Source: Eledone cirrhosa
Taxonomy: Eukaryota
Reading direction: 5' to 3'
Length of the DNA: 64,000 bases
Assembly: GCA_964016885.1 (NCBI GenBank)
Contig: OZ024745.1
Span: 57,288,001-57,352,000, forward strand
A model generated the notes under the pieces. The model had not been told where the DNA came from. It did no database searches and was given only the letters and a program-made list of their open reading frames with translations. Of this stretch, positions 1-60,615 are shown piece by piece. Position numbers and translations under genes: made by a program. How positions within the stretch are numbered: the stretch's first letter is position 1; each line of letters opens with the position of its first letter.

Positions 1-166
1 TTTGACAGATGTGGAGAAACCCGTATTTAATGGTAGTTACATTTTTTAGCTATTGCTGGAACGTTTTGTCTCCTGTTTGAGAAAGGAGGGTACATAATAA
101 ATATTTCTTTCTTTTTGAGAAAATAGAGTCAGGATAGCAATTCTAATATTGAAAATATACCTTCAA

Positions 167-340
167 ATCGGTAGAGAGTCGGACGCCATGCTTTCCAGCA
201 TAGTTACGTCCCTTTACGGTCTGAGTTCAAATCCCGCCGAGGTTCACTTTGCCTTTCATCCTTACGGGGTTGATAAAATAGAGTACCAGTAATGTACTGG
301 TTTATTGCTGACCGTGTGCCAAAAGTAGAAACAATTATTA
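167..340 (+). mobile_element. tRNA-derived SINE, 5'-truncated
   Basis: B-box GTTCAAATCC, conserved core GCCTTTCATCCTTACGGGGTTGATAAAAT...GTACCAG and tail GTAGAAACAATTAT; same family recurs about 10 times in the window. Confidence 0.85.
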
Positions 341-3772: not shown

Positions 3773-3810
<38 letters not shown>

Positions 3811-3816
<6 letters not shown>

Positions 3817-6085
3817 ATAAAATAACAGGAGGCTGGACTGGTGTAAATCCTTGAAAGGTTTATTATACTATGATAATTTCAATGACCGGGTTCCATATGA
3901 ATCCGGTGATATCATCAAGTATTGGAAATAACAAAGGAATATGTAAAAAACCATGGGTCCGAAAAATCATAGACAGAAACAAATAGGACGACTGACCAAC
4001 TAGCTGCCTTTACCACGGCCAGTCGCCCTCAAAGTGGTGGCAACTGAATCTACTAATGATCATCCAGTGAGGAGGCGAAGGTTTATAATGCACTACCACC
4101 TCTCCGTCAAAGAAAAAAGGGGAAGAAAGAAAGAAAGGAAGAAAGAAGAAAAAAGGAAGAAAGAAAGAAATCAGCGTAAGGGTCACACTACATTCATGCT
4201 AGAAAATGCCGCGAAAAAAATGCTACTCCAAAGAATCTATAATGGGTGTCTGTATGATCTAATGTGTGAACCGAAGATTGGAACGTTAAACTTATGCTGC
4301 GAGTTATAGGATGAAATTAAATTAAATTAAAAATATTAAATTGCAAAATGATAAATTGAAAAATAAATTATTAGAAAATTAAAGGTTAAGGTAGCGAGAT
4401 TTATTTAATGAACTTACGGAGAGAGTCTTCTATGAAAAGATGTATCTCGATAAGATATTAGGATGGGATATAGAGTAAAGATTTCGATTGCGAGTCCCAG
4501 CCAGCACCCCCCCCCCCTACCAAGAGTCAGCCAGTCTCGAGTGGTATCGTCCAGCGAAAGAAATGGAAATTAATCTTTCCGAGTACTCTAGGAACGTAGC
4601 TACCTTAGGCCCTGGGAGCGCTAGCGGGAACTCCACAATTTCGACAGGCCATCGTCTATACCGAACGAATATTATTAAATCACACATGAGGTGTTTATTT
4701 ACGTGCCAGTAGAGGCATGGCATGATAGAGCTAATAGTTATGCCTAAACCTGGAGTTTATAGGTATAAGTATAATACGGCGGCCAAAACAGGCGTCGCGG
4801 TGGGACCGGGGCAAAGCAACCCGCTCCGAATAATTTCGTTTACCGAAAGAGGAGAAATTTATTTTTCCGAGCACTCAAGGAAGGCTGAACTTTCTGAGTG
4901 CCCAGCGCGCAGCCGGGAAAAGCCACCACATAAGTCGAAGGTAGCAACCCAATGAAAAGTGCAAATAGACCATAATTATTTTAAAGTCCCAGTTAGTCCT
5001 GGTTATAAGTGGTGTAGTTCCTAGGTGGGTAGGTGGCTATGAAAGGTGCATAATGACCTGAGTAATGAAAGTTACAAAACAATAATAAAAGCAGGATACA
5101 AAGATAAAATACAAATATAAAGATAGAATACATTTATAAAAATACATTAATAAAAAAACATTAATAAAATAATAAAAAAAATAATAAAGGTAAATAACTA
5201 GGGAGATTAGAAAGACGGAAGTATATAAGAACGTATCGGAGCAATCACAGTGTGGGGGAAATACAATATAGATCAAGTTGTAGTAAGATAATACAGGTTG
5301 TACATATAGATATAGAGGATGGAGGAGATGGAATGGTAACAGGTTGTACCTAGTGTAAAGTTCGGGTCTCCGAATTCAGTGTGAGTCACAAAAAGTCCTG
5401 AGGTATAGAGTAGAGAATTCAGTCAATACAATACATGTTTTAGTATAATACGTAGAGTTTTGTCGGAATCGGAATCGTCCCGACAAGGAAGTAGTATCAG
5501 GTGGCGGTAGATAAAGCACAGAGCAGCCAAAATCCGAATGGTAGGTAGATCAGTTAATCCCATGCTGGCAATAGCTGTACACTGAAGTCAGTGCCTCTGT
5601 TCAATATTACATTTTGAAGTGCTCAACATTATTGGAGCATTATTTCTTTAGGTTTGTTGGTTCACCACTGGATAGAGTTGGTCATTCCGTATGGTCAATC
5701 TTGGTGTAATATTGTGGAGAGTACACAACGTAGTGCAGTTCACCCATCTTCATTTGTGTAGTTGGTGGTGCGAATACGGAGTTAATTATAAATAAAATAA
5801 TATAACAGGAGGCTGGACTGGTGTAAATCCTTGAAAGGTTTATTATACACATTTTTCGGACCCATGGTTTTTTACATATTCCTTTGTTATATTCCAATAC
5901 CTGATGATATCACCGGATTCATATGGAACCCGGTCATTGAAATGATCATAGTATAATAAACCTTTCAAGGATTTACACCAGTCCAGCCTCCTGTTATTTA
6001 ATTTTATTTATAATTAACTCCGTATTCGCACCACCAACTACACAAACGAAGATGGGTGAACTGCACTACGTTGAATACTCTCCAC
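3811..6085. mobile_element. HHR-bounded PLE-type non-autonomous element (family A): minus-strand unit 5848->3811 plus inverted segment 5851-6085
   Basis: 3811-3868 is a direct repeat of 5791-5848; 3811-3968 is the reverse complement of 5851-6010; 5715-5848 is the reverse complement of 5951-6085; 3' end abuts (TA)n at 3775-3810. Confidence 0.7.
5897..5954 (+). ncRNA. Type I hammerhead ribozyme (family A); degenerate copy at 3865-3922 (-)
   Basis: Stem I ATAC/GTAT, core CTGATGA, stem II CCGGATTC/GAACCCGG, GAAA-T-GATC-AT-A (palindromic stem III); predicted cleavage after A5950. Confidence 0.75.
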
Positions 6086-8018
6086 TCTCCACTCCCTCTC
6101 CACTCTCCACTCCCTCTCCCTCTTTCTTCTACTGGCAAGTTCAGCTACCCCTTCCTTCCACAAATTGCCATGATAGAATTATGTGTCTCAACAACAAACT
6201 TTTGACCAATGCTTGTGACAATCACTTTTACCATATATGGAATTATCCCCTGAGAAGCTCGGCTATTCATTTACCAGGATAAACATTTTCATTTAGTCCA
6301 GAATTAGCCGTCGAAACAGCTTGAGCTCAGCCGTCGGGGTCCTACTCGTTCCTATTACCCACTCTACTACCCTAAGTATTGAGTACTTTGGTGGGTTATG
6401 GTCCATCTGGTTCCTTACCACATTTCCTTCGTTATATATATATATATATATATATATTTCTGCGTCCCGCAGCAATTTCACAAATATTCACAAATTATTG
6501 TTATTTATTCTGTTTTATATTATTTTTATTTTTAGGTGTTATTAAAAGAGAATAAATTGAGACTAAAACTGCCATAAGAAGTGTTGATATAATTGACTAA
6601 ACCTTTTCAAAGTCAACAAATGAGCTTCCTTATCATTTGGATTCATTTAAATGTTTTTTATATGCTTGAAGGAAAATATTTCAAAACTTTAGCTGAAACC
6701 AATAGACTATTTAACATTAATGCCTGGAACAAGTCAGCAACTAGGCAGTGAGCAATATCTTTTGATTTGGCAAGCATCACTTCATGATGAAGAAGATTTA
6801 AATAAAAATCTTTCTTTTATCAATAGTTTGTAGACAGATACATGTACATGCCATTGTACTCTAAATAGCATAATTTCGACGATGGTGGCAATGTCATGAA
6901 TGTAATACGAGTTATTGTCGTTGATGTTTAAGAGAGATTTAGCTGAGATTACACCAACTTCTGATAACATTCCGTATTTATCCATCGTACAGGGACGCGA
7001 GGTCAGACGACACCAGAACATTTTCTAAGTGTATACGCTGTGAATAAACTGAATTTGACTCATGTAGCTAACAGATCGAACGAACAAATATAGATTTGAT
7101 TTAGAATTTTAAATTCTGTGTGTACTTTATTGCATGCATGAGGAGGCAGAAGTGGACAGAATCGCCAATGGGAATCGAACTCAAATATGCCGTCTGTTAA
7201 ACGGCCAGTTTACCAAGCGTTAGGTGTTGCTTCTTCTGGCCGCCAGAATGTTTTTCAGAAAATAAATATTACACGTTTCCCACATCTATTATATAATCGT
7301 TCATGAATATTTTCTTTCTGTTTTTCCTATTCCGGTATTTAAAACATCCACTTCAGTATATTGCTTTTTCTCGTATAAGTGTGAATGGGTTTGCGGGCGG
7401 GTTTGTGTGTGTGAGAGAGAGTGAATCTGTGTTCATGTATGTTGTGTTTACTAGAATATGATAATGTCGGTAATGTGGGGAAGTCAGAAAATATATTCAA
7501 AGAACTCATTACTGTCATTACAAACGTGATTTATTATATCGGCATACATTACTTTATTGCACATCTTTATAGACAGATATTTGAATTTATGTTAAAAACT
7601 GTCATGATTTTTCGTAATATTTCCGTTTATTTTCAAATCTTTGATTCATTTGATAGAATATTAATCTTAATTTTAAAATGCCACGTTCAAATCAAATTAA
7701 TTCCTCTACAATCTTTAAAATATTAATGGTATGCGCATGCATGGTGTAATAATATCTAATGTGTAAACATACTCGGCGCTTTTATGTTGATTTATTGCAC
7801 CAACGTTAATATCCTTCCTTCTCAGCTTTTCAACGAAACTGATGTAATGCATGAGGCGTAATGTAATTTCGCGCAAGAAAATTCCTTCAATAATGTTTTG
7901 AACACCTCTTTTAAAATAAATACCCTTCGAGGTTTCAGTTAATTTCGTTAAGGATAAATAAACAATTCGTATAATTACACACACACACGCACACACGCAC
8001 ACACACACGCGCGCGGCG

Positions 8019-13599: not shown

Positions 13600-14499
13600 T
13601 ATATATATACAAGCGTCTGGAAATATAACTTTTGTAGTAATAATTTATGCATCTGCAGATATTTATTTATTTAGGACAAGCAGGAATTAGGTTAAGTAAA
13701 AATATGTTACTGCATGTGCAGCAAATTCGGCTGCCCTATTAGACAGACCCACATTAGCATAATACTACTGCTGCTGCTACTGCTACTACTAATACTATTA
13801 TTGCTACTACTTGTGCTGCTGCGGCTACTACTCCTTCAGTTACGTCTAAACCGGAATTGTGCCTCCATTACCAATATAAACCTAATTAGCAAATATATAT
13901 GAATAACATTAAATATTACATTTAATACATTCACTGTAAAACTGTTATAGTTCAACTCCCATCTGAAATATTGAAACTATCGAAACTATTAAGAGGTCCT
14001 ACGAAGCTAACATAAACGTTGAACTATTACAGAAAAAGAAGCAATACGTGGTCGTTTACCTAGAGAAGGCATGCTTAATGGGCGTTAGTTATTCATTAGT
14101 GATGGAATCTAGTTTGTGTCAATTTATCTATATTCTGTGTTGATTTAGTTTTAAGCATTTCAATGAATTTAGCGTCCATTAAAATTCTTATTTCTTTACG
14201 GAAACTTTCCTGGAGTATCGTAGATTTGAGTGTTAATGCGTTTCTGTCTTCATTTGCGGTTTTGCATTGAAATTATTCCTTGTAATATGTGTGATGTGAG
14301 CTGGCAGAGTACTAAATGTGGTAATCCTACAGCCGCACACATATATAATATTGACATACATGTATATTTACAATACATACACACACACAGAAGCGCACAC
14401 ATACAAACACATACGAGCACACACATACACATACACAAACACATATATGTATATATATATCAATCAATCTATCTATCTATCTATCTATCTATATATATA

Positions 14500-17200
14500 T
14501 ATTAATTCAAAATATTAACAAAAATAGACATTCGTGTGATCAAGTATATTTGATTTTACATATTTCTGAGTTACTGAGCTATCTTCAACAGTACGTCCTC
14601 ATCAGATAAAATAAAATGATGCATGACATACCCTGACTAAGTAGATGGTTAAAATACAGTCATGGCAGTGAATAAGATATGACAAAACTCAATATTTATA
14701 TGCCTTAAGATTGAGACACATAAATATATAAATCAAACATCTTGAATCTTAAAACAACATATTCAAAATAATAAATGAATGGTTTACGATTCCTTATAAC
14801 TGTTAACCATATAAGCTATATATTTTTAAAAAATACAATAAACCCCGAAAAAAGTAAATGTATTTACACAATCACATGTTAACACTCTACATGTTTATAT
14901 ATTTATATAGAACCCTTAATCTAACATTAATCATATCGTAAATGAATAAAAATTATTATAAGGTTTTATAATCTGTTATAGTATCATTTTACGCACTCAG
15001 TTGATAAGAAACGTCAAAAATTAAAACTTATTTATTCAATGTTTTTCCTGACTTTTTTCGTGAGGCTTGGAATGTACAAGAAGCTTTATGTAGGCAATTT
15101 GAGAATAATTCACTTTTTTGTTAATTAAATTTTCATAATTATTAATTATTAATAAGGTCTCCATAGTACAAAGTTTGCAGTTAGGTGATATTGAAGAATT
15201 CAAGTAGATTAGACTATTACACGGCTTTGACAACGAAATCGAATATTTAAAAATTTTGTCTTTTAATGACCATATAAGTTGTGATAAAGAGGTCGAATAT
15301 TTCCTATTAGGATTCGAAAAAGAATATGTGTGATTCGAAAATATTAATTTAAATGTCGATGAAGTTGCACCAATATAGTTGTATGTGATGTTATTTGCTT
15401 TTACGGTACATTTATAGACCAGATTGCTAGCCAGACAATTATTTTGCAGAGAGCAATTTGATCTATTTCTACAATTACATTTCGATTTATTGTTATTACT
15501 ATAAATTGGACAATTGACATTGCTATTACTTTGATGTGTTCTATTGATAGTGCTTAGATTAATGTTATTGTTATTCCTAGTATTAATATTTCTAGTGTTA
15601 TTATATTCATTATCCCTAATTGTTTGTTGGTTATGATTTAGAATTCTACTATTTATTTTTGTAATGTTCTGGGCCATATTCATAGTTATAGAATAAGAAA
15701 GCTTAATTGTGTCTGTTAAATATGGAACGGTATTTATGTTGTATGGGGAAGCATTTATCTAAAGCTTTAAATAATAGATTTGCGAGTGGTGTTTTGATTG
15801 CTACAGATGCGGGAGGAGCAAACCATATAACTGATTTAGTTCTGATTTTTTCCCCCGATTTATTCATGGTATTGGTGTTTGTATGTTAATTTTAGAATCT
15901 CGTTTATTTATGTTAGTCTTATTTTTACCAGGATTATAATTCAAATTATTATTATCTATATATTCAATATTATTTTTATAACCTGCCTTACGTAGCGCGT
16001 CATTATAATATCCTGCTTTTTCATCAAATATGGATTTATTAGCGGATATTCTAGTTATGCGTTTCTGTACACTATTCACTATTGCATTTTTCACGAATTT
16101 AGGGTGATTAGGGTAATAGCTAACGTAATTTAAGTTTTCATTGGGCTTATTGAAAGGGCAATAAAATCCTGAGTTTAAGTTAAGGGTGACGTCAAGGAAA
16201 TTAACTATTTTGGTACTACTTTCAACTTCTAATTTAAGGTCGGAACTTTTAAAGAATTCAATTATAGTTTTCTTAACCCTATTTAGTACTGTATTGCTAT
16301 GCTTGACAACCGTAAATAAAATATCGTCCCTATATAAACCACCGTCAGTTTTCTATTTACCATATTTAAGATACAAATACACAGAAGATCGGTAACCTGC
16401 GCAGAGTCCGATGATCCCATGGTAATGTCAAAGTTTCTCTTCCTATCTGAACGGGTCCAATACTCATTGTTAAAATTAATTAGAGTTCTTCTAGCAGTTA
16501 ATATGATATTGATTTCATCTGCAGTTAGATCTGTATGTTTGTAAGCATAAGACAAAGCCTTATTTAATAGGTTAGGTGTAATAGAAGAATAATAACTTGC
16601 TATGTCCATTTGGATGAATTTGTGATTTTTCCTATTTTCCATATTTTTAAACCAGTCAATTACTTCATTAGTGTCCTTCCATTTATTATATGTATATAAA
16701 TCACTAATATCGTCTTAAGCTTTAAACAGAATACTCTGTATGTATTTAGACAAATGTGTATATCTAGTTTAATAACATCCTTCTATGTACATTTATAAGG
16801 GCCTTAGATACTTAAGGACATTCTAGTGTTATAATTGTTAAATATTTTCTAAATTATATAATGATTATTTTTTAATTTAATTTTTTTTATATAATTAAAT
16901 TTGGATTACCTTCGGGTTGATGAAATTCTTAAGTCTTTTCTTTCTCATGTTTGCAGACACTTTAAATATGATATTATACTATAATATAGATCCTTTAAAA
17001 CTTTCTTGCATTTTTAAATTATATAGCTTAGATATTTGACACTTAGGATCGGAAACGGTTCATTTATTTATTTTGAATCTGTGTCTTATCTTTTATGATT
17101 CATGAAGTTTGATTTGTATATTTTTAATATAATAATTGACGTAAAACCTTACTTTTAATACTATTAACAGTAATTTATTTATTATATTATATTATATTAT
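14500..17200 (-). pseudogene. Degenerate Naiad-type Penelope-like element (RT + GIY-YIG + 3' UTR), family B
   Basis: Fragments WKDTNEVIDWF, FIQMDIASYYSSI, ITMGSSDSAQVTDL, CNCRNRSNCSLQNNC, NLVYKC...YIGATS, CKLC; frameshifted; 3' end at (TA)n. The upstream limit is approximate. Confidence 0.82.
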
Positions 17201-18772: not shown

Positions 18773-18780
<8 letters not shown>

Positions 18781-19949
18781 ATATTTGGGGAGGGTCATAT
18801 TTGCGTAATATTGCCAGAATTAATAACAGAACACACTCACTGTTTGGTTGGTTTTCGCTTCTCGCTGTCTTTTATATATATATATCTGCGATCTAACTTA
18901 CTCGGTCCTCAATGTTGCCATTGACTGACCGGCGGTCAAAAATAATACAGATACAATATAGACAAACACATATATATATAGTTTACATAAATCTTTCGTT
19001 GCACATCTGCAACATCGTCAGTGGTGTTATATTCATTGTTCCTCCTGTTGTGTTGTATGTCTACGCCATTTTTTTTTGTTCAGTCTGTCTATATATTTAT
19101 TTATTTATTTGCTTGTTTGTTTATCTTATTTTATTTTGTCTTCTTTGCGCATGCGTTTGCGTGTGTGTATAGTGTTATGTGTGATGTGTGACTAGTGTGT
19201 ATAGTGTTGTGTCTGCTGGGTGACTAGTGTGTGTTTATGTGCTTGTGTATGTATTTATTTATCTTATTTTATTTAATTTAATTTACTTATTTATTTATAC
19301 TTCTCTTAGGTCAGTGTTGTTTGTTTGGGTGTTGTTGTTGTTCATTCTTTCTGTTTAGCTAAACAGAAAGAATGAGTGGAACAACAACAACACCCAAACA
19401 AACAACACTGACCTAAGAGAAGTATAAATAAATAAGTAAATTAAATTAAATAAAATAAGATAAATAAATACATACACAAGCACATAAACACACACTAGTC
19501 ACCCAGCAGACACAACACTATACACACTAGTCACACATCACACATAACACTATACACACACGCAAACGCATGCGCAAAGAAGACAAAATAAAATAAGATA
19601 AACAAACAAGCAAATAAATAAATAAATATATAGACAGACTGAACAAAAAAAAATGGCGTAGACATACAACACAACAGGAGGAACAATGAATATAACACCA
19701 CTGACGATGTTGCAGATGTGCAACGAAAGATTTATGTAAACTATATATATATGTGTTTGTCTATATTGTATCTGTATTATTTTTGACCGCCGGTCAGTCA
19801 ATGGCAACATTGAGGACCGAGTAAGTTAGATCGCAGATATATATATATAAAAGACAGCGAGAAGCGAAAACCAACCAAACAGTGAGTGTGTTCTGTTATT
19901 AATTCTGGCAATATTACGCAAATATGACCCTCCCCAAATATAACAATAT
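18773..19949. repeat. ~1.18-kb zero-loop palindrome
   Basis: Centre CTGTTTAG|CTAAACAG at 19358/19359; arms mirror each other (identical 86-aa ORFs 18912-19172 + and 19550-19810 -) apart from 5 extra nt near the centre; flanked by (TA)n. Confidence 0.95.
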
Positions 19950-20067: not shown

Positions 20068-21350
20068 ACTATTATTACTATCTATCTAAATATTTTGAAG
20101 TGAAACATACCAATTTTTCGGGGTACTTGCTGAAGAGATCTGAATTTGGTATTTTTTCACTTTTTCATTTATCGAAACATATTTGGATTTTAAAGTTTAA
20201 ACTTATCTACGGAGCAGGTTTGGATTTTGAAATTTAAATTTGTCCAAGTACCACAGCCATTTGCCAATATGATTTGTTTTTATTGATTTATTATTTTAAA
20301 TCGAGACAGGCAAACTGTATTATTATAATTAGTATTTTTCAATCTAGGTAACTTAGTCATTTACAATACAAACACTTATATGTTGGTATTAGTGTTTATC
20401 AAATATATTAATTTATATTAACCTGTATTACACGGCTCAGAAATACTTCTTTCTTTGAGCGCTTTCATTGTAAAGGACTGTTTGAGTTTAGAACTCGTTA
20501 TTCATAGTATCTATATATATATATATAAAATATTAAACAAATAATGAATAAAACAATGAAACAGTTCCTTATATTAAACAAAAAAAGTTCATTATTTAAC
20601 GATCGTTTCTAGGATATATATGTGTTAGAATTGGCATGCATATTCAACAGATCTATGTACAAAATTATACAAAATTATACAAACTATCAAGATTAAATAT
20701 ACATACCAACACATATATACGCCGTCTTCAGAAATAATGAAATATATTTATTGATAATAACAACAATTCAAAATTTCAGGTCCGTTTGGGAACAAAATTG
20801 ACCAATGAAAATACAAAAGGTTTTATGCAGTTCGGTGTGTGTATATACATGTAACTACCCTTACACATATTTTACAAAAATGTATGCTCAACATGTATAC
20901 GCATACCAAAAGGATGGATGCAAATACAAAATTTCAAGGTTAATGTCTCTGTAAGTTTATAATGCACAGATAAGATGCGTATAGACACATAAATATGAAA
21001 TAAGTGTATACACATATTCTCATACTCACACATATCCGTACAATCACACACACGCGCGCGTATATGCATAAACATACACATAATTACGAACATACAAACA
21101 CACACACACCCCCACTCATATATATATATGTGGATATAATATCATAAGCACATGGATATTAATTCACTCACATAAACACTGTCACACACATTTAGATCAA
21201 GATACAGAAATTAGGTGGGAGGGGGGGAGAGGTCAGTATTCAACGGTTTGGGCAGACTGCTTATTATAGATGTATCTATAAACTAAGAAATTAAAAAGAA
21301 AAAAGAAATATATCAAGAAAATATATATATATATATATATATACATATAT

Positions 21351-21405
<55 letters not shown>

Positions 21406-21511
21406 CATATATATAAACACATACATATACACACATCCACACTTAGAACATACATACACACACATATATAAACATATACATATACACACATACACACATA
21501 TACACACATAC

Positions 21512-21558
<47 letters not shown>

Positions 21559-21863
21559 TATACACACACAATCACACATACTATATAGACACACATATAT
21601 ATACACACATACACGCACATATACATACACATACATACTTATATACATACAGATATACACATACATACCTATATATAGACGCAAATTCATACAGATATAC
21701 ATATATACATACACACAAATACTTACGCATCCATATATCGGTATATACATACAAACACCACTACACTCTCACACAACTCAGACATACAAAGAAAAAGGTA
21801 TATACCTATATACATATATATATACAAATAGAGATACATATACATATATATATATATATATAT

Positions 21864-21900
<37 letters not shown>

Positions 21901-22094
21901 CACATATACACACATATACATACATACACATACATACATGTACACACACATACATATACATACATACACACATACATACATACATATATAGTCATACACA
22001 CACATACACCTACACGAACATACACATACACATATATAAAGATATATATATACACACACACATACACACACACACATATATATAAAAAATAAAG

Positions 22095-22126
<32 letters not shown>

Positions 22127-22464
22127 ATATACATACATATACATACACACATACATAGACATATATGTACATACATACACATACATACATACATACACAC
22201 ACATATATACATATATATACACACATAGACACATACATACATACACACACAACATACATACACACACATATATACTCATACATAGAATTAGATATATATT
22301 CATACATACATACGCACTTACATATACTCATATATACAAATACATACGCATCCATATATGCGTATATACATACAAACACCACTACACCCTCACACAACTC
22401 AGACATACAAAGAAAAAGGCATATACATATACATATATACACGCATTAATAGAGATATATATAT

Positions 22465-22501
<37 letters not shown>

Positions 22502-22719
22502 CATTTATATATATACACTCACACACACATACAACCATAAACACACATACAAAACATACAAACACACACATACACATATATATACACATACATATATATA
22601 CACACACACAAAAAACAGACGTACATATATATATTTTTTTACACATATATATACACATATATATACATATACACACCCTCACATATACACACATAGACAT
22701 AAGTTATATTATAATAATA

Positions 22720-22774
<55 letters not shown>

Positions 22775-23023
22775 CGAATATAGACATATATACACACATA
22801 GATATATATATATATATATACATATACACACACACACACACACACTCATATATATGTGTGTGCGCACACGCACATACATACACATACACACATATACACG
22901 TAAACACATACATGTGCATACATGCACATACACACATATACCCACATAGATACGAATATAGACATATAAATAGAGAGACATACATATATATACACACACA
23001 TATATACATACATACATACACAC

Positions 23024-23062
<39 letters not shown>

Positions 23063-23206
23063 CATACACACATACACGCCCACACACATATACACATATA
23101 CACATATATATACACATACACACATACACATACACATATATATACACATGCATATATACACACATATATACATCTAATATTTTTAAACCAGTTAATTACC
23201 TGGGAG

Positions 23207-24997
23207 GTGTTTTCCCAGAGTGGTAAAATAACGTGGGAAAACACCTCCCAGGTAATTAACTGGTTTAAAAATATTAGATGTAAATCTTCTGCTTCATTTC
23301 TACAATTTGATATAGATAATTACTATTCTTCTATATCACCTATACTCCTGAACAAAGCATTGATATTTGCTAAAAATAGATCTAACTTAACTTTGGATGA
23401 CATTAATATTATTACACATGCTAGACTAACACTTATTGAATTTCAGAATGAATACTGGACCAGAAACACATATAGTAATCTATTTGATATTACTATGGGT
23501 TCAAGCGATTCCGCCCAAATTACTGATCTTGTGGGCCTCTTTATCCTTTTCAACATAAATGCCTCCTTTCCCCACCTCAAAGGTGGTTTATATCGTGATG
23601 ACTGTCTTCTTCTTTCTAACAACCTTAGCCTTTCAGAAATTGAAAAAAACAAAAAACATATTAGAACTTTCCTTAAAGACTATTATAATCTTCATATTAC
23701 TTTTGAAAAAACAAGTAAAGTAGTAAATTTCCTAGATATAACTTTAGATTTAGCTACGGGTATCTACCAACCTTATCATAAACCAAACCAAAACTTACAT
23801 TACATACACTCACAATCTAATCACCCTAAATCTATCCTTAAAAACCTTGCATATAATATATCACTTAGAATTTCTAACCTTTCTTCTAACCAAGATGTAT
23901 TTGATAAAAATGCGACCTTCTATAACGAAGCTCTAGATAGAAGTGGCCACAAAAATAGATTAGAATATATACCTTCTACTAAAAATACTGAAAGCATACA
24001 ACCTAATATTACCAACAAACACCAAATGAAAAGTACACACCTAAATGCCACCCACACTATACCCCAAAATACCAAATCTTCTAATATAAAATATAGTAAC
24101 TCTCAAAAAACTACTAATTATACAACTCTAATAAATATTAATAATAAAACTCCTAATAAAAAGGATAAAACACCTAAATCTACAAATATAACTAAAAATG
24201 GTTGTGGTGAGATCATTAACATTAATCCTCCTAGTAAACATCACGATACAACCTATAAAAATAATAAAAATAATAAACAACATAGAAACCGTAATAGACG
24301 GGTTACTTGGTATAATGCTCCATTTAATTTACAAATTAAGGATAATATTGCTAAAAATTTTTTTTATATCCTAGAGAAAAACTTCCCGCCAAACCACAAA
24401 TACCATCAAATCTTAAATAGGTCTACAGTTAAATTCTCATACTCTACAACAAATAACATAAAACAAAATATAAGTGCCTATAATGCATATAAATGTAAGA
24501 AAACCATAAGTATACCACCAGTACATCAAATTAACCATAATATCTCCTCAAATACAGAATTAACGAAAGGTTGTAACTGTAGAAACAAGGCAAACTGCCC
24601 ATTAAAAGGGAATTGTCTTGTTAACAACATAGTCTATAAATGTAATGTTAAAACTAAAGATTCTATTTGCTCATATATAGGAGCTACCTCTAACAATTTT
24701 AAGACAAGGTTTAATACCCACAAGCATAGTTTTAAAAATGCCGCACTGGCTAATACAACATCTCTAGCAGAAAAAATCAATAGTTATAAAAATAAGAATA
24801 TAGAATATGATTTGACCTGGAGTGTTCTCAAAAGAGCCACCCCTTATCAAAATAATAGAAATGAATGTAGATTATGTTCCCAAGAACTATTTGAAATAAT
24901 GAAATCTAAGGATATCCTATTAAATAAACGACAGGAATTAATTATATCGTGTAATCATAAACTAAAAAAAACATTTAAATATTATAAACCTAATTAA
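23207..24997 (+). CDS. Penelope-like (Naiad-type) reverse transcriptase + GIY-YIG endonuclease, 5'-truncated, uninterrupted
   Basis: FLQFDIDNYYSSI, ITMGSSDSAQITDLVG, GGLYRDDC, VNFLDITL, YIHSQSNHP; then CNCRNKANCPLKGNC, NIVYKC...YIGATSNNFKTRFNTH, CRLCSQE, LLNKRQE. The GTG start lies in the fold-back arm, so it is not the native start. Confidence 0.92.
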   Translation: MFSQSGKITWENTSQVINWFKNIRCKSSASFLQFDIDNYYSSISPILLNKALIFAKNRSNLTLDDINIITHARLTLIEFQNEYWTRNTYSNLFDITMGSSDSAQITDLVGLFILFNINASFPHLKGGLYRDDCLLLSNNLSLSEIEKNKKHIRTFLKDYYNLHITFEKTSKVVNFLDITLDLATGIYQPYHKPNQNLHYIHSQSNHPKSILKNLAYNISLRISNLSSNQDVFDKNATFYNEALDRSGHKNRLEYIPSTKNTESIQPNITNKHQMKSTHLNATHTIPQNTKSSNIKYSNSQKTTNYTTLININNKTPNKKDKTPKSTNITKNGCGEIININPPSKHHDTTYKNNKNNKQHRNRNRRVTWYNAPFNLQIKDNIAKNFFYILEKNFPPNHKYHQILNRSTVKFSYSTTNNIKQNISAYNAYKCKKTISIPPVHQINHNISSNTELTKGCNCRNKANCPLKGNCLVNNIVYKCNVKTKDSICSYIGATSNNFKTRFNTHKHSFKNAALANTTSLAEKINSYKNKNIEYDLTWSVLKRATPYQNNRNECRLCSQELFEIMKSKDILLNKRQELIISCNHKLKKTFKYYKPN

Positions 24998-25497
24998 TAA
25001 CATTATTTTAGAAATTAATTTAATTTAAATGTTAGTTAACCTATAAATTTAATTTAATTAAAATTCTATTACAGATGAAAATATAAAATATTGTGTAATC
25101 ATAAATTGTGAAAAACCTTTAAATATTACTAATATATACTTAGTAATTTAATTTATAGATTAATTTTAATTTATTTAAACCTTTTATTAAAATTCCTTTA
25201 CAGATAAAATATAACAAAATATCGTATATCCAATGACAGAGAAATAATTTTTAGTATTATAGACCTAATTAATATACATTTTAGAAATATATTTATAATT
25301 TGGTTTTAAATTTAGTCAACCTAAAAATTTAATTTAATTGGCTTAAAATTAGTATCCTTATACAGACGGATTGCAGAATGTCATGTAATCATAGAATGGG
25401 ATGTGTTTTGGCTATATACCTAGTTAATATATTCTTTGCAATTTTTGAAAAAATATGTATATGTATGTATGTATATGTATGTGTATGTGTGTGTATG

Positions 25498-25528
<31 letters not shown>

Positions 25529-26364
25529 ATGTATATATATATGTGTATGTATATGTATATGTATATGTATTAATTTTGATTTCTATTTGCATATAATTAT
25601 ATTCTGCTATTGTTAAAATACAATATCTGTTTTATTTATTATATACCTAATTAACATATACTATAGAAATTAATATATAATTTTTAATTTAGTTAACCTA
25701 TAATTTATATTCTACTACCGATGTAATACTTTATTTGTTTTTTCCCTATTACTAAATTCATTTCCTAATATTGATACCATAACGTTATTAACTTTAATTT
25801 AGTTATACTATAATTAATACTCTACTACTATTTAACTTCAAAATTCTGCTTCAAATATTATAAATCTAACTAATTTACACCTTAGAAATCAATATGTTAA
25901 CTATCTTTAGTTTAGTTAACATATAATTAATGGTATACTTATTTATTTTGAAATGCATAAATTTTGCCTTATTTCTTGTATTTCCTAACACTGAAACTAT
26001 GTAAAAACATACATTGGATCCAGATACAGATAATATTATATGTTTCTTGAAACATATATTTACTATAATCCCCTTCTCCAACCCCCCCCCCCTTTCCCCC
26101 ATACTATTATCATCTGTGTTTGTAAGCGTGTATGTATGAATATATATGTAGGTAGGTGTATATATGTTTGGGTATTTATATCTGAATATAAAAATACATA
26201 TATGCGCATGCAAATAAGAATGTAAGATTGTGTGTATATATATGTGTGTATGTATATATATGTGTGTATATATGCATGTGTATATATATATGTGTATGTG
26301 TATGTGTGTATGTGTATATATATGTGTATATGTGTATATGTGTGTGGGCGTGTATGTGTGTATG

Positions 26365-26403
<39 letters not shown>

Positions 26404-26652
26404 GTGTGTATGTATGTATGTATATATGTGTGTGTATATATATGTATGTCTCTCTATTTATATGTCTATCTTCGTATCTATGCGGGTATATGTGTGTATG
26501 TGCATGTATGCACATGTATGTGTTTACGTGTATATGTGTGTATGTGTATGTATGTGCGTGTGCGCACACACATATATATGTGAGTGTGTGTGTGTGTGTG
26601 TGTATATGTATATATATATATATATCTATGTGTGTATATATGTCTATATTCG

Positions 26653-26703
<51 letters not shown>

Positions 26704-27286
26704 TATTATTATAATATAACTTATGTGTATGTGTGTATATGTGAGGGTGTGTATATGTATATATATGTGTATATATATGTGTAAAAAAATATATATATGT
26801 ACGTCTGTTTTTTGTGTGTGTGTATATATATGTATGTGTATATATATGTGTATGTGTGTGTTTGTATGTTTTGTATGTGTGTTTATGGTTGTATGTGTGT
26901 GTGAGTGTATATATATAAATGTATGTGTATATATATATATATATATGTGTATATATATCTCTATTAATGCGTGTATATATGTATATGTATATGCCTTTTT
27001 CTTTGTATGTCTGAGTTGTGTGAGGGTGTAGTGGTGTTTGTATGTATATACGCATATATGGATGCGTATGTATTTGTATATATGAGTATATGTAAGTGCG
27101 TATGTATGTATGAATATATATCTAATTCTATGTATGAGTATATATGTGTGTGTATGTATGTTGTGTGTGTATGTATGTATGTGTCTATGTGTGTATATAT
27201 ATGTATATATGTGTGTGTATGTATGTATGTATGTGTATGTATGTACATATATGTCTATGTATGTGTGTATGTATATGTATGTATAT

Positions 27287-27320
<34 letters not shown>

Positions 27321-27514
27321 CTTTATTTTTTATATATATGTGTGTGTGTGTATGTGTGTGTGTATATATATATCTTTATATATGTGTATGTGTATGTTCG
27401 TGTAGGTGTATGTGTGTGTATGACTATATATGTATGTATGTATGTGTGTATGTATGTATATGTATGTGTGTGTACATGTATGTATGTGTATGTATGTATA
27501 TGTGTGTATATGTG

Positions 27515-27576
<62 letters not shown>

Positions 27577-27854
27577 TATGTATATGTATCTCTATTTGTA
27601 TATATATATGTATATAGGTATATACCTTTTTCTTTGTATGTCTGAGTTGTGTGAGAGTGTAGTGGTGTTTGTATGTATATACCGATATATGGATGCGTAA
27701 GTATTTGTGTGTATGTATATATGTATATCTGTATGAATTTGCGTCTATATATAGGTATGTATGTGTATATCTGTATGTATATAAGTATGTATGTGTATGT
27801 ATATATGCGTGTATGTGTGTCTATATAGTATGTGTGATTGTGTGTGTATATATA

Positions 27855-27913
<59 letters not shown>

Positions 27914-28023
27914 GTATGTGTGTATATGTGTGTATGTGTGTATATGTATATGTTTATATATGTGTGTGTATGTATGTTCTAAGTGTGGATGTGTGTATAT
28001 GTATGTATGTGTTTATATATATG

Positions 28024-28054
<31 letters not shown>

Positions 28055-28663
28055 ATATATGTATATATATATATATATATATATTTTCTTGATATATTTC
28101 TTTTTTCTTTTTATTTTCTTAGTTTATAGATACATCTATAATAAGCAGTCTGCCCAAACCGTTGAATACTGACCTCTCCCCCCCTCCCACCTAATTTCTG
28201 TATCTTGATCTAAATGTGTGTGACAGTGTTTATGTGAGTGAATTAATATCCATGTGCTTATGATATTATATCCACATATATATATGTGAGTGGGGGTGTG
28301 TGTGTGTTTGTATGTTCGTAATTATGTGTATGTTTATGCATATACGCGCGCGTGTGTGTGATTGTACGGATATGTGTGAGTATGAGAATATGTGTATACA
28401 CTTATTTCATATTTATGTGTCTATACGCATCTTATCTGTGCATTATAAACTTACAGAGACATTAACCTTGAAATTTTGTATTTGCATCCATCCTTTTGGT
28501 ATGCGTATACATGTTGAGCATACATTTTTGTAAAATATGTGTAAGGGTAGTTACATGTATATACACACACCGAACTGCATAAAACCTTTTGTATTTTCAT
28601 TGGTCAATTTTGTTCCCAAACGGACCTGAAATTTTGAATTGTTGTTATTATCAATAAATATAT

Positions 28664-28817
28664 TTCATTATTTCTGAAGACGGCGTATATATGTGTTGGT
28701 ATGTATATTTAATCTTGATAGTTTGTATAATTTTGTATAATTTTGTACATAGATCTGTTGAATATGCATGCCAATTCTAACACATATATATCCTAGAAAC
28801 GATCGTTAAATAATGAA
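28664..28817 (+). ncRNA. Type I hammerhead ribozyme with ~115-nt stem II domain (family C); mirror copy 20588-20741 (-)
   Basis: 10-bp stem I TTCATTATTT/AAATAATGAA, CTGAAGA, long hairpin (GTATATATGTGTTGG/CTAACACATATATAT), GAAAC-GATC-GT-T. Confidence 0.72.
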
Positions 28818-29012
28818 CTTTTTTTGTTTAATATAAGGAACTGTTTCATTGTTTTATTCATTATTTGTTTAATATTTTATCTTGACTCTGTATACCGTTT
28901 ATCTTTCACCGAAAGTGATTTTTCATTACATCTCTTCTTTCCATGATATCCGGAATACATTGAGTTCTTCATACGGATTGGACACTACCGTAAACTCTTG
29001 GTAGATTTATCT

Positions 29013-29378: not shown

Positions 29379-29379
<1 letters not shown>

Positions 29380-30300
29380 AAAGAAAGTTATAGTTTTCAC
29401 ATCCACCACCATTTTCACATCCAGAAAAAGGAAGTTATAGTTTTCACATCCTTCACATATGTTACGATGTATTCGTATTGAATGTTTGATGTAGTAAAGG
29501 ATTGTAACGTTTTGAGGCTCAGTATTATTTAATCAATATTTATAGAATAGGTTCTTTCTGCTTCGAGAATTTACAGCGGTTTATTATCCGGAAGTAGGTA
29601 TGCATACCTACTTCCGGATAATAAACCGCTGTAAATTCTCGAAGCAGAAAGAACCTATTCTATAAATATTGATTAAATAATACTGAGCCTCAAAACGTTA
29701 CAATCCTTTACTACATCAAACATTCAATACGAATACATCGTAACATATGTGAAGGATGTGAAAACTATAACTTCCTTTTTCTGGATGTGAAAATGGTGGT
29801 GGATGCGAAAACTTTCTTTTTCTTTTTCTGCACACATACTAATTTGATCTATACAAAAAATACCCTCCCACTACAACCACCATAATACTCTTTCTTACCC
29901 GCTTAAAGTGCTTGTATTACATGTAATACCTTGCCACACAATACACTTATATAAATGAGACACACTTGCATGCTCTATATATGATAAAAGCATACACTAT
30001 TTACTAGATCTGATTATTGGACTATTCTCTTGCATTATCTGTGTTATCTGCCGCATGTATTTTAATTTTAATTTTGATTTTAAATTAGAATTACTATACA
30101 AATATAGTATAGTATAATATATGTCGCTCCACTCTACATCAATATATATATATTTATATGTATTTCTCTTGCGTTGGATAGGAGGTCAATTATATGTACA
30201 AGCATTTTAATGCTCCGAAGACAACAAGCCTAGGTTTGGATGAAACAATTGTAAGTGAATAAATGTTTTGAACATAGCTTTGATTCTTGTGAATTCTCTC
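29379..30300. mobile_element. PLE 3'-end fragment (family D-related) whose 5' part is a zero-loop palindrome 29379-29820
   Basis: Centre GTAGGTATG|CATACCTAC at 29602/29603; 29820-30300 is homologous to 35450-35920 and carries an HHR at 30211-30257. Confidence 0.8.
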
Positions 30301-32129: not shown

Positions 32130-32184
<55 letters not shown>

Positions 32185-33684
32185 AAGAATCAAAGAACTG
32201 TTCAAAACATTATTGTGCTTACAGCTGTTTCCTCCAAACCGAGGTTTGGATTCTTCGGAGCAATTTATTAATGCATGGACAGTTATATGACCTCCCTTTC
32301 AGCCGAGAGACATACCAATACATATTCAAACATTGATACATATTCAAACATTGTGGGTCAACATTCATTACAGAATTTAGAGTGGCAGTACACACTTCGA
32401 GATTACATTTATATTAATAGGTACAATCAAAAATCAAAGATATAGGTTAAAGTACAACATGAAGATAAGTGGTTATATAGTGCAAATGTTATATGTGTGG
32501 CACGCATGTGCGTCTTGTTTATATAGTGTGGCAGAGAGATATGTGTGGTAGAGGCACTTAGGTAGGTAAATAAGAGTGTTAGGTTGGTAGATCTGGTGGC
32601 AAAGTCTTTATATGATTGATATAGTCTGTGTGTGGAGAAATATTATAAGCATTAAAGATAGTGCAAGCATTAAAAGTGTTATAAGTATTGGAGATGCACA
32701 GCGCAGGGATGTCAAGTAATTCATGTACTTCGGTATTTTCATGGTCAAGGGAGTGTATATTTCGATTATATGCCTTTCACATAATCCACGACAATCCAGT
32801 TAGAGATCGTAGTCTGGTGTTCTTTAGTTCGATACAGGAGGTTGTTACGTTTCGAGAGACGCCATTGAATGCCGGAAGTGTGTGTGTGGCTAAGGGGAGT
32901 TAATGCATGCGGGGAGGTAACTCTGGGGTTTCTATATCTAGCCATTAAAATGTGTCCCAATATAGACCCTAAATTCTATGGTGAGGTGCACCTTCCAAGA
33001 GAGACTTTTAAAGCATAAAGTGTACTAACTATAGAGTAGTTTAACTAAATTATGCTGAAGGTGATCATATTATTATTAAGGTGGATTAACCCATCTTAAG
33101 GTGCTACAAATGGAAATTATAGATGATGAGCGAGGATTCTAAATTAATGATCTCTGTGGTTGTAGTCTGCTCATATGACCAGGCGCGGTGATTGCAGGAT
33201 TGCTTCAGGACCCAATGATCTCTGGTAAGATCTGGGTCATCGCTTGCTACATTGGATGTCGAAAGATAATCATCCCCAGGCAGGCCAAAGGTCAATCCGC
33301 AGTCCTCGCGACCCCTCTCTGACCGTCAGATCATCCATATACGTACAACCCGCACGGCAGTTGCATTGCATTCACTCACTGCGCTCAGCAGCCTGGTCCT
33401 ACTGGTCAACAGCGCTACTCGATTAAATCATTTTACATCTGTCTAAGGAGGGTGTTTCCTCTGCCCAACACCATCCAACCGATCAATTCATGCTCAAATT
33501 ACCCTTAGAGCGGTATAGTGCCGTCCAGGTGGGTGGATGTTGTCACACCTGCCGTAGAGGTATAAATGGGTATTTTCCCTGCGAAGGGTTCCAGAGGGAT
33601 GTCGTTGTTTGTGTTATAATGGATCAGCTAGTGTTGGGTATGTAGTATAGGGTGTGTCTCTGGTGTTTGATGCTAGATGTGGTG

Positions 33685-34510
33685 TTAGGTTCCAGTCCGA
33701 CATTGCCATATATAGGGCTTACAGTTTTGGAAGGAATGTCTGAGGCGGTGCTGGCAAGTTGCAAACACCTCAGATTTTTTGTTAAGTAGGTTACGGTTGG
33801 AGAAGATAATATTGTGTGTCTCTAGTATACAGAGGTTACAGAATTTATTAGGTGGTTTGTACGAGGTCGCGCTGCCTATCACTTCCCATTTGAGTGTGTA
33901 TGGTTTATTTTTAGATTTTAGATAGTGTATGTAGCTAGAAAGTGAGGTGGAGTTGGCTAGGCTGTGCTTTTTGAACGAGTGGATGTGCGAGTTATATCTA
34001 ATTTTGAAGCAGTTAGAAGTGGAGCCCACATAGGTTTCTGAAGAGTTATTAGTCGTGACTGTGCATGAGTATATGACATCCTTGGTTAGGCATTTTTTAT
34101 CTAAAGGGCAGGTTCTATTAGCTCTACAGTTACAATTATTCTGTGCGTTAGTCCGCTGGTTATAATGCAATGCGGAAGTCTGTGTGGTGGATATAGGATT
34201 TTGGGTGTTCAGGTTGACAACCCTGGTGTTATTACTTATACTAGTGTTATTTCTATTGTTACTGCCGTTGCTATTGTTGCTTGCTACAGTGGTATTTAGA
34301 GGGTTTGCATCCCGTTGCGATTTTGTTTGTTGGAAGTAAGAACTAATTTTACTATTATTGCTGCTAGCTATGTGGTATGCTAAGTTAGGCGTCGTGGAGT
34401 ATGAGATTTTAATGGTGTTTTTGTTTAAGAGGTTGTGGTACTTGTGTCCTAGAGGGAAGTTTTTATCTAGTAGTGAGAAGAAAGCCCTAGGTATGTTGGT
34501 GGAGACATTA
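33685..34510 (-). CDS. 5'-truncated PLE C-terminus: linker + GIY-YIG endonuclease
   Basis: Open frame from about 34510: FFSLLDKNFP.GHKYHNLLNKNTIKISYSTT, CNCRANRTCPLDKKC, VIYSC...YVGSTSNCFKIRYNSH, CNLCILE, LLNKKSE. Confidence 0.85.
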
Positions 34511-35832
34511 CTCTAAGGGTAATACCCATTTATACCTCTACGGCAGGTGTGACAACATCCACCCACCTGGACGGCACTATACCGCTCTAAGGGTAATTTG
34601 AGCATGAATTGATCGGTTGGATGGTGTTGGGCAGAGGAAACACCCTCCTTAGACAGATGTAAAATGATTTAATCGAGTAGCGCTGTTGACCAGTAGGACC
34701 AGGCTGCTGAGCGCAGTGAGTGAATGCAATGCAACTGCCGTGCGGGTTGTACGTATATGGATGATCTGACGGTCAGAGAGGGGTCGCGAGGACTGCGGAT
34801 TGACCTTTGGCCTGCCTGGGGATGATTATCTTTCGACATCCAATGTAGCAAGCGATGACCCAGATCTTACCAGAGATCATTGGGTCCTGAAGCAATCCTG
34901 CAATCACCGCGCCTGGTCATATGAGCAGACTACAACCACAGAGATCATTAATTTAGAATCCTCGCTCATCATCTATAATTTCCATTTGTAGCACCTTAAG
35001 ATGGGTTAATCCACCTTAATAATAATATGATCACCTTCAGCATAATTTAGTTAAACTACTCTATAGTTAGTACACTTTATGCTTTAAAAGTCTCTCTTGG
35101 AAGGTGCACCTCACCATAGAATTTAGGGTCTATATTGGGACACATTTTAATGGCTAGATATAGAAACCCCAGAGTTACCTCCCCGCATGCATTAACTCCC
35201 CTTAGCCACACACACACTTCCGGCATTCAATGGCGTCTCTCGAAACGTAACAACCTCCTGTATCGAACTAAAGAACACCAGACTACGATCTCTAACTGGA
35301 TTGTCGTGGATTATGTGAAAGGCATATAATCGAAATATACACTCCCTTGACCATGAAAATACCGAAGTACATGAATTACTTGACATCCCTGCGCTGTGCA
35401 TCTCCAATACTTATAACACTTTTAATGCTTGCACTATCTTTAATGCTTATAATATTTCTCCACACACAGACTATATCAATCATATAAAGACTTTGCCACC
35501 AGATCTACCAACCTAACACTCTTATTTACCTACCTAAGTGCCTCTACCACACATATCTCTCTGCCACACTATATAAACAAGACGCACATGCGTGCCACAC
35601 ATATAACATTTGCACTATATAACCACTTATCTTCATGTTGTACTTCAACCTATATCTTTGATTTTTGATTGTACCTATTAATATAAATGTAATCTCGAAG
35701 TGTGTACTGCCACTCTAAATTCTGTAATGAATGTTGACCCACAATGTTTGAATATGTATCAATGTTTGAATATGTATTGGTATGTCTCTCGGCTGAAAGG
35801 GAGGTCATATAACTGTCCATGCATTAATAAAT

Positions 35833-35879
35833 TGCTCCGAAGAATCCAAACCTCGGTTTGGAGGAAACAGCTGTAAGCA
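35833..35879 (+). ncRNA. Minimal type I hammerhead ribozyme, CCGAAGA core (family D); mirror 32216-32262 (-), relative 30211-30257 (+)
   Basis: Stem I TGCT/AGCA, CCGAAGA, stem II TCCAAACC/GGTTTGGA, GAAAC-AGCT-GT-A. Confidence 0.8.
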
Positions 35880-36609
35880 CAATAATGTTTTGAACAGTTC
35901 TTTGATTCTTATATTTCATATAACTGCTCTGTAAATCATCTGATGTTTTTACATTGAGCTACTTAACTTACTGGTAATAAGGTAGTAATACATTACTGCC
36001 TACCACTATTTAGGGTGTGTGTAAAATACTTACAACTGCTTAAGGTTTTGTGTTTACATAACCATAAATAGTATAACTAATACTATATATATATATATAT
36101 ATATATATATTAATATATACAGATAGATAGATAGAAAAAATCGTCGGAAATAAGATTTGATAATGATTTAAGAAAATACTGAATAAAACGTTGTAATTCA
36201 TTTAGTGAATCTAGAATGAAATACGGTCATGCGCGGGGTAACTGTAAGGTGAAGGTTAAGGAAAATCGAAGACTCAAGCATCTCTATATAGAATCTTCTA
36301 TCGGGGGAATTATTTAATTAAATATTGTTTTAATATAAACAATGTGAGTTTGGACTGGAGCAAAGCTAGTTTCTATATGAATTGTTTGGGTTTTATTTTC
36401 TGATTTATGGTAACGTAATGAATGTACATTCTGAGATAATTTTAAATGTGGGTCAACTAATTTGACGTTTGACCTAAAGTTATCTAATTTTAAAATGTCC
36501 TATTCCAAAGTGAATTGATCTCGTGCTGAAAGTATTTACTTACAGCTACTAATTTTGTAGAAATCAATGTATATTGTAAATAAGCATGGCGTTCATCTAG
36601 CAATGGACT

Positions 36610-58942: not shown

Positions 58943-59013
<71 letters not shown>

Positions 59014-59017
<4 letters not shown>

Positions 59018-60610: not shown

Positions 60611-60615
<5 letters not shown>
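59014..60615. mobile_element. Retrozyme-like tandem array (family F), 466-bp unit: 2.4 minus-strand units plus one inverted unit
   Basis: Units 59014-59479, 59480-59945, partial to 60146, then inverted 60146-60615; one HHR per unit; (TA)n on both sides. Confidence 0.88.
60278..60322 (+). ncRNA. Canonical minimal type I hammerhead (family F); copies 59239-59283 and 59705-59749 (-)
   Basis: AATATTG-CTGATGA-GATG(TAACAA)CATC-GAAAC-TA-GT-T-CAATATT. Confidence 0.9.

What the first reader, a model, noticed from the sequence alone, without database searches (positions are those of the whole stretch)
3811..6085. A 1980-nt non-coding element that begins exactly at its own predicted ribozyme cleavage site
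The minus-strand unit starts at 5848 with GTATAATAAACC, the sequence immediately 3' of the predicted HHR cut (A5950|GTAT; 3869 in the other copy). Homology breaks precisely there. The unit runs 1980 nt to the next HHR, and an inverted HHR-containing segment is attached at its 5' end. Inference: a cDNA copy of a self-cleaved, possibly circular monomer RNA. This would be genomic evidence that the ribozyme cuts in vivo, in a unit far longer than typical animal retrozymes.
Basis: partly seen in the sequence, partly recalled or inferred. Interest (0 to 1): 0.7.

Follow-up and report, generated by a model that had tools for sequence, protein, structure and literature searches.

The report
Two-kilobase hammerhead passenger of Penelope elements
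This is one copy of an abundant, protein-free 2-kb repeat that carries a predicted self-cutting RNA motif and is likely copied by the enzyme of a Penelope-type jumping gene; its start at the predicted cut site is likely chance, because most other long copies run straight through that site.

Summary
The coordinates are right, but the inference mostly fails. The minus-strand unit starts exactly at the predicted hammerhead cut (5848). None of 128 other long copies from this genome does: 70 of the 80 that reach within 21 nt of the cut read through it, and one such coincidence has a 12-36% chance. A weak excess of stops just 3' of the cut (3 of 73 at +2/+3, P about 0.04) leaves room for a small cleaved fraction. 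The fixed points lie elsewhere. 3' ends fall at +62 or +208 past the cut, in (TA)n. 84 of 97 two-armed insertions pair one end of each kind, and six 5' ends fall at exactly +204. This is the Penelope-like element (PLE) 'tail' signature, and an autonomous Hydra-clade family in the genome has nearly the same geometry (+60/+202). Best reading: a ~1.95-kb non-autonomous Hydra-type PLE passenger, or long retrozyme, copied from an RNA that is intact across the ribozyme (circle or uncut tandem). Cleavage and circularity are untested. The scan found this architecture before in shorter families of this genome, not in this family.

The parts
3773..3806 (.). (TA)n target microsatellite at the 3' end of the long arm
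   Evidence: 113 of 124 ends at +62 and 100 of 102 ends at +208 abut TA runs
3807..3868 (-). 3' extension past the ribozyme cut (+1..+62); ends at the short inferred RT start site
   Evidence: 62-nt direct repeat of 5787-5848; 124 of 325 mapped 3' ends at exactly +62
3865..3922 (-). type I hammerhead motif of the long arm; C3>U (3918) and loop III change (3875), probably inactive in this copy
3869..5848 (-). one full non-coding unit, cut to cut (1980 nt here; majority 1946 nt)
5641..5786 (-). +63..+208 segment between the two inferred RT start sites (146-nt 'tail'); long start site at 5641
   Evidence: 102 of 325 3' ends at exactly +208; six 5' ends at +204; loose (TA)n ends at 5641 in DNA contigs
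5849..5850 (.). two extra bases at the head-to-head junction of the two arms
5851..6085 (+). inverted, 5'-truncated second arm (last 100 nt of the unit, ribozyme, +1..+135); stops short of the usual +208 end
5897..5954 (+). intact type I hammerhead motif, predicted cut after A5950; palindromic AUGAUCAU at stem/loop III; no G10.1-C11.1 pair
6086..6457 (+). fragment of a different high-copy repeat, then (TA)n at 6433-6457; joined to the short arm at a CTCTCCAC microhomology (likely a later deletion)

Best explanation
This is a two-armed insertion of a ~1.95-kb protein-free, hammerhead-bearing repeat that is likely mobilised in trans by a Hydra-clade Penelope-like retrotransposon, and its start at the predicted ribozyme cut is likely a chance 5' truncation. 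Shown: family structure, two fixed 3' ends at +62 and +208 past the cut, (TA)n targets, one end of each kind per two-armed insertion, scattered 5' ends, read-through of the cut. Inferred: the PLE protein cuts both strands in (TA)n; each DNA end primes reverse transcription internally on the element RNA, one at +62 and one at +208; the cDNAs run back through an intact ribozyme for variable lengths and are joined head to head. The template must be continuous across the cut, so it is either a cleaved and religated ~2-kb circle or an uncut tandem precursor. I put these at about even odds, slightly favouring the circle because 5' ends pile up where copying started one unit earlier (+204).
For: 3' ends: 141 of 325 at +58..66 and 135 at +200..211. 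Of 97 divergent two-armed loci, 84 pair a short with a long end, 1 long-long, 1 short-short, 11 other. Two adjacent internal RT start sites downstream of the ribozyme define the PLE tail (PMC11167929); partial tandems, an inverted 5'-truncated copy and a tail at one end are typical PLE structure (PMC8557442). An autonomous family in this genome has the Hydra motifs RWK, DKT and CxCx5C, targets (TA)n, and ends at +60/+202 past its own ribozyme. The two other PLE families examined had end spacings of about 35-40 and about 95 nt (first 12 copies each). Its +1..+57 segment resembles ours weakly (19 of 2000 shuffles score as well). Read-through: 70 of 80; upstream extensions run continuously from a few nt to 1439 nt and past a full unit, with no start-site pile-up. 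Arms and laps of one insertion share a lineage: an indel marker agrees in 34 of 34 loci with two scorable calls. 5,646 ribozyme-core pattern matches in the genome, sister families included.
Against: The exact autonomous partner was not found; only 3 PLE families were examined, and the long-site similarity to the Hydra family is not significant (179 of 1000 shuffles). The unit shows no protein homology to 12 PLE ORF fragments (best E 0.57), so descent from a PLE is not shown. Stops just 3' of the cut are somewhat more frequent than background: 3 of 73 at +1..+3 (P=0.04 or 0.008 by baseline); 10 of 80 at +1..+21; short arms 8 observed vs 4.4 simulated at +1..+3 (P=0.08) and 7 vs 2.4 at +2 (P=0.012), mostly next to TA-rich flanks. 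The window's second arm ends at +135, not +208. No A>G excess marking an edited RNA stage.
Confidence: 0.8

Rival explanations
1. One reading: this copy is the run-off cDNA of a self-cleaved linear RNA whose 5' end is the ribozyme cut; a minority of templates are cleaved in vivo.
For: Exact break at +1 with 2 extra bases. L066, L086 and L046 stop at +2, +2 and +3; the stop rate at +1..+21 is 0.64%/nt against 0.35 upstream and 0.19 downstream. The fold is kept in a sister family with compensatory stem I changes.
Against: 0 of 128 other long arms and no unambiguous short arm stop at +1. At most about 4% (3 of 73) to 12% (10 of 80) of arms reaching the site stop near it. TATA at +2..+5 is microhomologous to the (TA)n target, and +7..+25 is a quasi-palindrome that favours fold-back joints. 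In the Hydra family none of the 21 copies with a mapped upstream lap, of 25, starts at +1.
Confidence: 0.15
2. The template is an uncut linear tandem transcript and the ribozyme is dispensable for copying; stops at +204 mark a protein-bound site, not one lap of a circle. This is a sub-case of the best explanation.
For: Ribozyme mutants do not affect insertion of the anole PLE in vitro, and no RNA reads ended at its cut (PMC11167929). Minimal PLE ribozymes cleave poorly (PMC4209133). This motif lacks G10.1-C11.1 and has a 2-bp stem III. Tandem genomic copies exist (L062, L122, L102).
Against: No pile-up of 5' ends at a transcription start; extensions reach beyond one full unit, while multi-unit source loci are rare among the 128 arms. 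The core is intact in 96-99% of 261 copies per position, though so is most neighbouring sequence.
Confidence: 0.4
3. The structure arose at DNA level (inverted duplication, satellite turnover or assembly fold-back) without an RNA step.
For: The window holds several long inverted duplications; L062 has two laps with 0 differences in 567 compared sites.
Against: Dispersed copies with fixed asymmetric 3' ends, random 5' truncation and (TA)n targets; the arms of one insertion differ by about 4-5%, unlike an assembly artefact.
Confidence: 0.03

Closest known systems
Hydra clade of C-terminal-endonuclease Penelope-like elements (Craig et al. 2021, PMC8557442; passages and section 11 read)
   Same: Hammerhead near the end, (TA)n target, partial tandem plus inverted 5'-truncated copy, tail at one end; an autonomous Hydra-type family in this genome has ends at +60/+202.
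   Different: No ORF and no detectable protein homology; tail is 146 nt rather than the 30-40 bp given for PLEs in that paper.
Animal non-LTR retrozymes (Cervera and de la Pena 2020, PMC7229834, passages read; Li et al. 2026, 10.64898/2026.07.22.740005, parts 1-3 of 5 read)
   Same: Non-coding unit with one type I hammerhead, low GC, occasional head-to-tail repeats, proposed PLE dependence.
   Different: Mostly dispersed, truncated, two-armed copies rather than arrays. Ribozyme of the minimal, palindromic PLE type. Circular RNA not shown.
Poseidon PAc of the green anole (Frangieh et al. 2024, PMC11167929; parts 1-2 of 4 read)
   Same: Two internal RT start sites downstream of the ribozyme that match genomic ends; AT-rich double-strand cleavage; uncut RNA as main template.
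   Different: PAc is autonomous and its two sites are close together (tail of 30-40 bp).
Non-autonomous Chlamys elements such as MRC1 (PMC8557442, passage read)
   Same: Protein-free elements with pseudo-LTRs and head-to-tail copies.
   Different: Green algal; Chlamys elements mostly lack hammerheads; they share 3' sequence with identified autonomous partners.
R2 elements with a 5' HDV-like ribozyme (mechanism recalled; only the existence of such ribozymes seen in PMC4209133)
   Different: Here 5' ends do not concentrate at the cut.

Membership tests
Penelope-like element (autonomous) | Single ORF with telomerase-like RT and GIY-YIG endonuclease | tested here: not met
   Longest frame 89 aa in the majority; no Pfam hit above cut-off; no tblastn match to 12 PLE fragments
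PLE-mobilised non-autonomous element | Partial tandem (pseudo-LTR) and inverted 5'-truncated second copy | tested here: met
PLE-mobilised non-autonomous element | Two fixed 3' ends (tail) downstream of the hammerhead | tested here: met
   +62 and +208; 84 of 97 two-armed loci pair one of each
PLE-mobilised non-autonomous element | Sequence shared with an identified autonomous partner | tested here: inconclusive
   Hydra-type family shares end geometry and a weak motif; only 3 families examined
Hydra-clade system | Insertion into (TA)n | tested here: met
   113 of 124 and 100 of 102 ends; not unique to Hydra
Type I hammerhead ribozyme | CUGANGA / GAAA / NUH core with stems I-III | tested here: met
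   95.5% of cells paired, 2 compensatory stem I pairs in 7 sequences of two families (24 of 500 shuffles as high); loop III palindromic in both families
Type I hammerhead ribozyme | G10.1-C11.1 pair closing stem II | tested here: not met
   U-U (or bulged A-U/G-U) next to the core
Type I hammerhead ribozyme | Self-cleavage | not testable with these tools
   Monomer minimum-energy folds are not the hammerhead; needs an assay
Animal non-LTR retrozyme | Non-coding unit with one type I hammerhead | tested here: met
Animal non-LTR retrozyme | Tandem repeats with at least two consecutive hammerhead units | tested here: met
   70 arms carry two ribozyme sites in direct repeat; two or more near-complete laps are rare (L062, L122, L102)
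Animal non-LTR retrozyme | Short monomer (under about 1 kb) | tested here: not met
   about 1.9-2.0 kb
Animal non-LTR retrozyme | Expressed linear and circular monomer RNA | not testable with these tools
   No RNA holder listed
Cleaved-5'-end retroelement (R2-like) | Full-length copies start at the ribozyme cut | tested here: not met
   0 of 128 at +1; 70 of 80 read through

The most novel reading that the evidence does not exclude
A ~2-kb non-coding circular RNA, about twice the longest animal retrozyme in the papers read, is made by ribozyme cleavage and religation. A Hydra-type PLE dimer copies it from two start sites 146 nt apart, and the pile-up of 5' ends at +204 records polymerases stopping after one lap, while a few cDNAs (this copy among them) ran off still-linear cleaved molecules.
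Probability: 0.35. Interest if true: 0.62.

Novelty: new variant of a known kind. Interest (0 to 1): 0.36.

Why it matters
What the hammerhead does in Penelope-like elements is open: it was proposed to make circular templates (PMC4209133) and found dispensable in vitro (PMC11167929). This family gives a long, 5'-truncating template on which stop positions can be counted. The counts say the template is almost always intact across the cut, which excludes a cleaved linear monomer as the main template and leaves circle against uncut tandem as a simple experiment. It also extends the size range of retrozyme-like passengers to 2 kb, beyond the period limit of the published tandem screen. The single coincidence that prompted the finding carries little weight.

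Tried and rejected
Rfam gathering scan: no family. Pfam on 11 of 30 frames: nothing above cut-off. tRNA scan: none. Bacterial promoter scan: fewer hits than shuffles, not relevant. RVT_1 genome search: the listed rows gave no lead to a partner and were not followed. BLAST starts at query 243 rejected as a query artefact. L003, first noted as a second +1 start, begins at -12. L129 was mis-registered and corrected (71 of 81 became 70 of 80). L052 is ambiguous (-3 with a deletion, or +21) and was counted as +21. Inserts at unit positions 1608 and 557 were tested as introns and are a SINE-like repeat (label recalled). A-to-G editing scars: none (10 A>G vs 15 T>C shared; 75 vs 89 unshared). A repeated start motif (ACC-N4-6-GGA-N3-5-ACCAGT) occurs only before the two start sites, but it was defined post hoc and the alignment control was null (205 of 355 windows score as well). 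Autonomous partner: 3 PLE families and 30 sister-family loci examined, none with an ORF leading into this ribozyme. No RNA holder listed; the three runs laid are contigs of one sample and cannot show ends or expression. My generic hammerhead scanner missed this motif because of its mismatched stem II. The first structure string for pair counting was mis-registered and redone. Paper searches listed no description of this family; an octopus repeat paper has no mention of hammerhead, ribozyme or retrozyme in its main text. Supplements were not read and may list it or its partner (Craig et al. files S1 and S2; Li et al. tables).

Full report
Notation. U is the reverse complement of window 3869-5848; +1 is the base after the predicted ribozyme cut; negative numbers lie upstream of it. 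The genome is a 3.0-Gb animal assembly; a cephalopod origin is my inference and was not established.

1. Observation. The sequence is as described. From left to right: (TA)n, then on the minus strand +62..+1, a hammerhead motif and one full unit starting at 5848; two extra bases; then on the plus strand the last 100 nt of the unit, an intact hammerhead motif (cut after A5950) and +1..+135. The minus-strand motif has C3>U and a broken loop III palindrome; 251 of 261 copies keep the C. The motif is of the minimal PLE type: 4-bp stem I, long stem II without G10.1-C11.1, 2-bp stem III with a palindromic loop, as described for dimer-acting ribozymes (PMC4209133). A sister family keeps the fold, with two compensatory stem I pairs and another palindromic loop. 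Rfam does not detect it. The unit is non-coding.

2. Family. A degenerate core pattern matches 5,646 times, and an exact 41-mer 665 times. Most copies are 5'-truncated. The top copies are 93-98% identical to their majority; more distant subfamilies exist, and some carry SINE-like inserts.

3. Set A: long arms chosen by exact words at +197..217 (48 matches, all listed) and +256..275 (132 matches, first 100 listed). I fetched 114 regions and added those already held, giving 128 arms without the window copy. Eleven calls were corrected by hand, mostly internal deletions. Result: none stops at +1; 70 of 80 arms reaching +21 read through the cut; 3 of 73 stop at +1..+3. Stop rates are 0.19%/nt at +22..+198, 0.64 at +1..+21 and 0.35 at -1..-129. 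One +1 stop among 71 arms has a 12-36% chance. Read-through extends smoothly from a few nt to 1439 nt and past a whole unit (14 rows there gave no self-alignment). Set B: a pattern selecting arms broken near the cut gave 339 hits; the first 90 were mapped, 31 dropped (28 internal deletions or outside the range, 3 duplicates), 59 kept. At +1..+3 there were 8 against 4.4 simulated (P=0.08), and at +2 alone 7 against 2.4 (P=0.012). On inspection four of the +2 calls are over-extensions into TA-rich flanks and the one +1 call is a fold-back joint. So a small cleaved fraction is not excluded, but cleaved linear RNA is not the main template. An autonomous Hydra-type family behaves the same way: none of 21 mapped upstream laps, from 25 copies, starts at its cut.

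4. What is fixed. Of 325 mapped 3' ends, 124 lie at exactly +62 and 102 at +208, nearly all against (TA)n; of 97 divergent two-armed loci, 84 pair one of each. Six of 119 arms at risk stop at exactly +204 (P below 1e-5; position noticed in the data, not predicted). A few arms stop at +59..62, which is weaker. Arms and laps of one insertion share an indel marker in 34 of 34 scorable loci, and they are about half as distant from each other (4.2-4.7%) as from the median other copy (about 10%). The window's plus arm ends at +135 against another repeat at a short microhomology; a later deletion is the likely cause.

5. Mechanism. PLEs insert as partial tandems with an inverted 5'-truncated copy and a tail at one end (PMC8557442). 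The anole PLE protein cuts both strands of AT-rich DNA, starts at two internal RNA sites that match the genomic ends, and uses mainly uncut RNA (PMC11167929). Of three PLE families sampled here, one has the Hydra motifs and ends at +60/+202 past its own ribozyme, close to +62/+208; the others have spacings of about 35-40 and 95 nt. I infer that a Hydra-type protein copies this RNA from both ends of a break in (TA)n. The exact partner was not found. The template is continuous across the cut. A religated circle, as proposed in PMC4209133 and shown for short retrozymes in PMC7229834, explains the unbounded upstream extensions and the stops one lap from a start site. An uncut tandem transcript with protein roadblocks explains them nearly as well. 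No editing scars were found to separate the two.

6. Comparison and novelty. It works like a non-autonomous PLE and like an animal retrozyme. It fails membership of autonomous PLEs (no ORF) and exceeds the published retrozyme sizes (51-972 nt in a screen capped at period 1000). The 146-nt tail is longer than the 30-40 bp in the papers read, but an autonomous family here shares it. Four paper searches listed no description of the family; supplements were not read. Earlier notes of this scan describe the same two-armed, two-start architecture for 310-600-nt families of this genome; none matched this sequence. They are leads, not support.

7. Verdict. A real, abundant element and a long variant of a known kind. 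The headline coincidence is probably chance. Interest 0.36; the 2-kb circle reading has probability 0.35.

Noticed in passing
window 18773-19949, 20525-28880, 29379-29826, 32173-35922: Long inverted duplications (97-99.9% identical arms); some contain Hydra-type PLE ORF fragments (23240-24988 +, 33718-34512 -; also 15102-16675 -), so they may be two-armed PLE insertions.
   Followed up: partly
window 59013-63070: 465-nt and 493-nt tandem units with hammerhead-like motifs at 59276, 59742, 61688 (-) and 60285, 62254, 62747 (+), in opposed arms: other retrozyme-like families.
   Followed up: no
window 18642 (+) and about 14460-14720 (-): Another hammerhead-like motif pair closing a Hydra-type PLE fragment.
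   Followed up: no
L235-L259: Young autonomous Hydra-type PLE family (about 780 aa, mostly 96-99% identical) with a hammerhead whose stem II is oversized and ends at +60/+202.
   Followed up: partly
L285-L309: Very young PLE family (99-100% identical over 677 aa, frames up to about 1217 aa), with ends about 95 nt apart; window 18773-19949 appears to share its end sequence.
   Followed up: no
L310-L339: Older sister family with a related ribozyme and about 70% identity over +8..+195, with the same two ends; no ORF upstream in the 30 loci held.
   Followed up: partly
L102, L024, L078, L007, L030: A SINE-like repeat sits at unit position 1608, in both laps or arms of some insertions and in only one of others: carried cargo, a hot spot, or both.
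   Followed up: partly
L062 / L004-L005: Two complete laps that are identical, including a private deletion, although 2.3% from the majority: a recent duplication or a recent two-lap copy.
   Followed up: partly
L015:3340-4037: A 700-nt insertion splits the arm at the ribozyme cut site.
   Followed up: no
L023:1563-1640 and window 3865-3922: Both ribozyme copies carry the same two changes (C3>U and loop III G>U), which perfect an alternative hairpin; shared source or quasi-palindrome repair.
   Followed up: no
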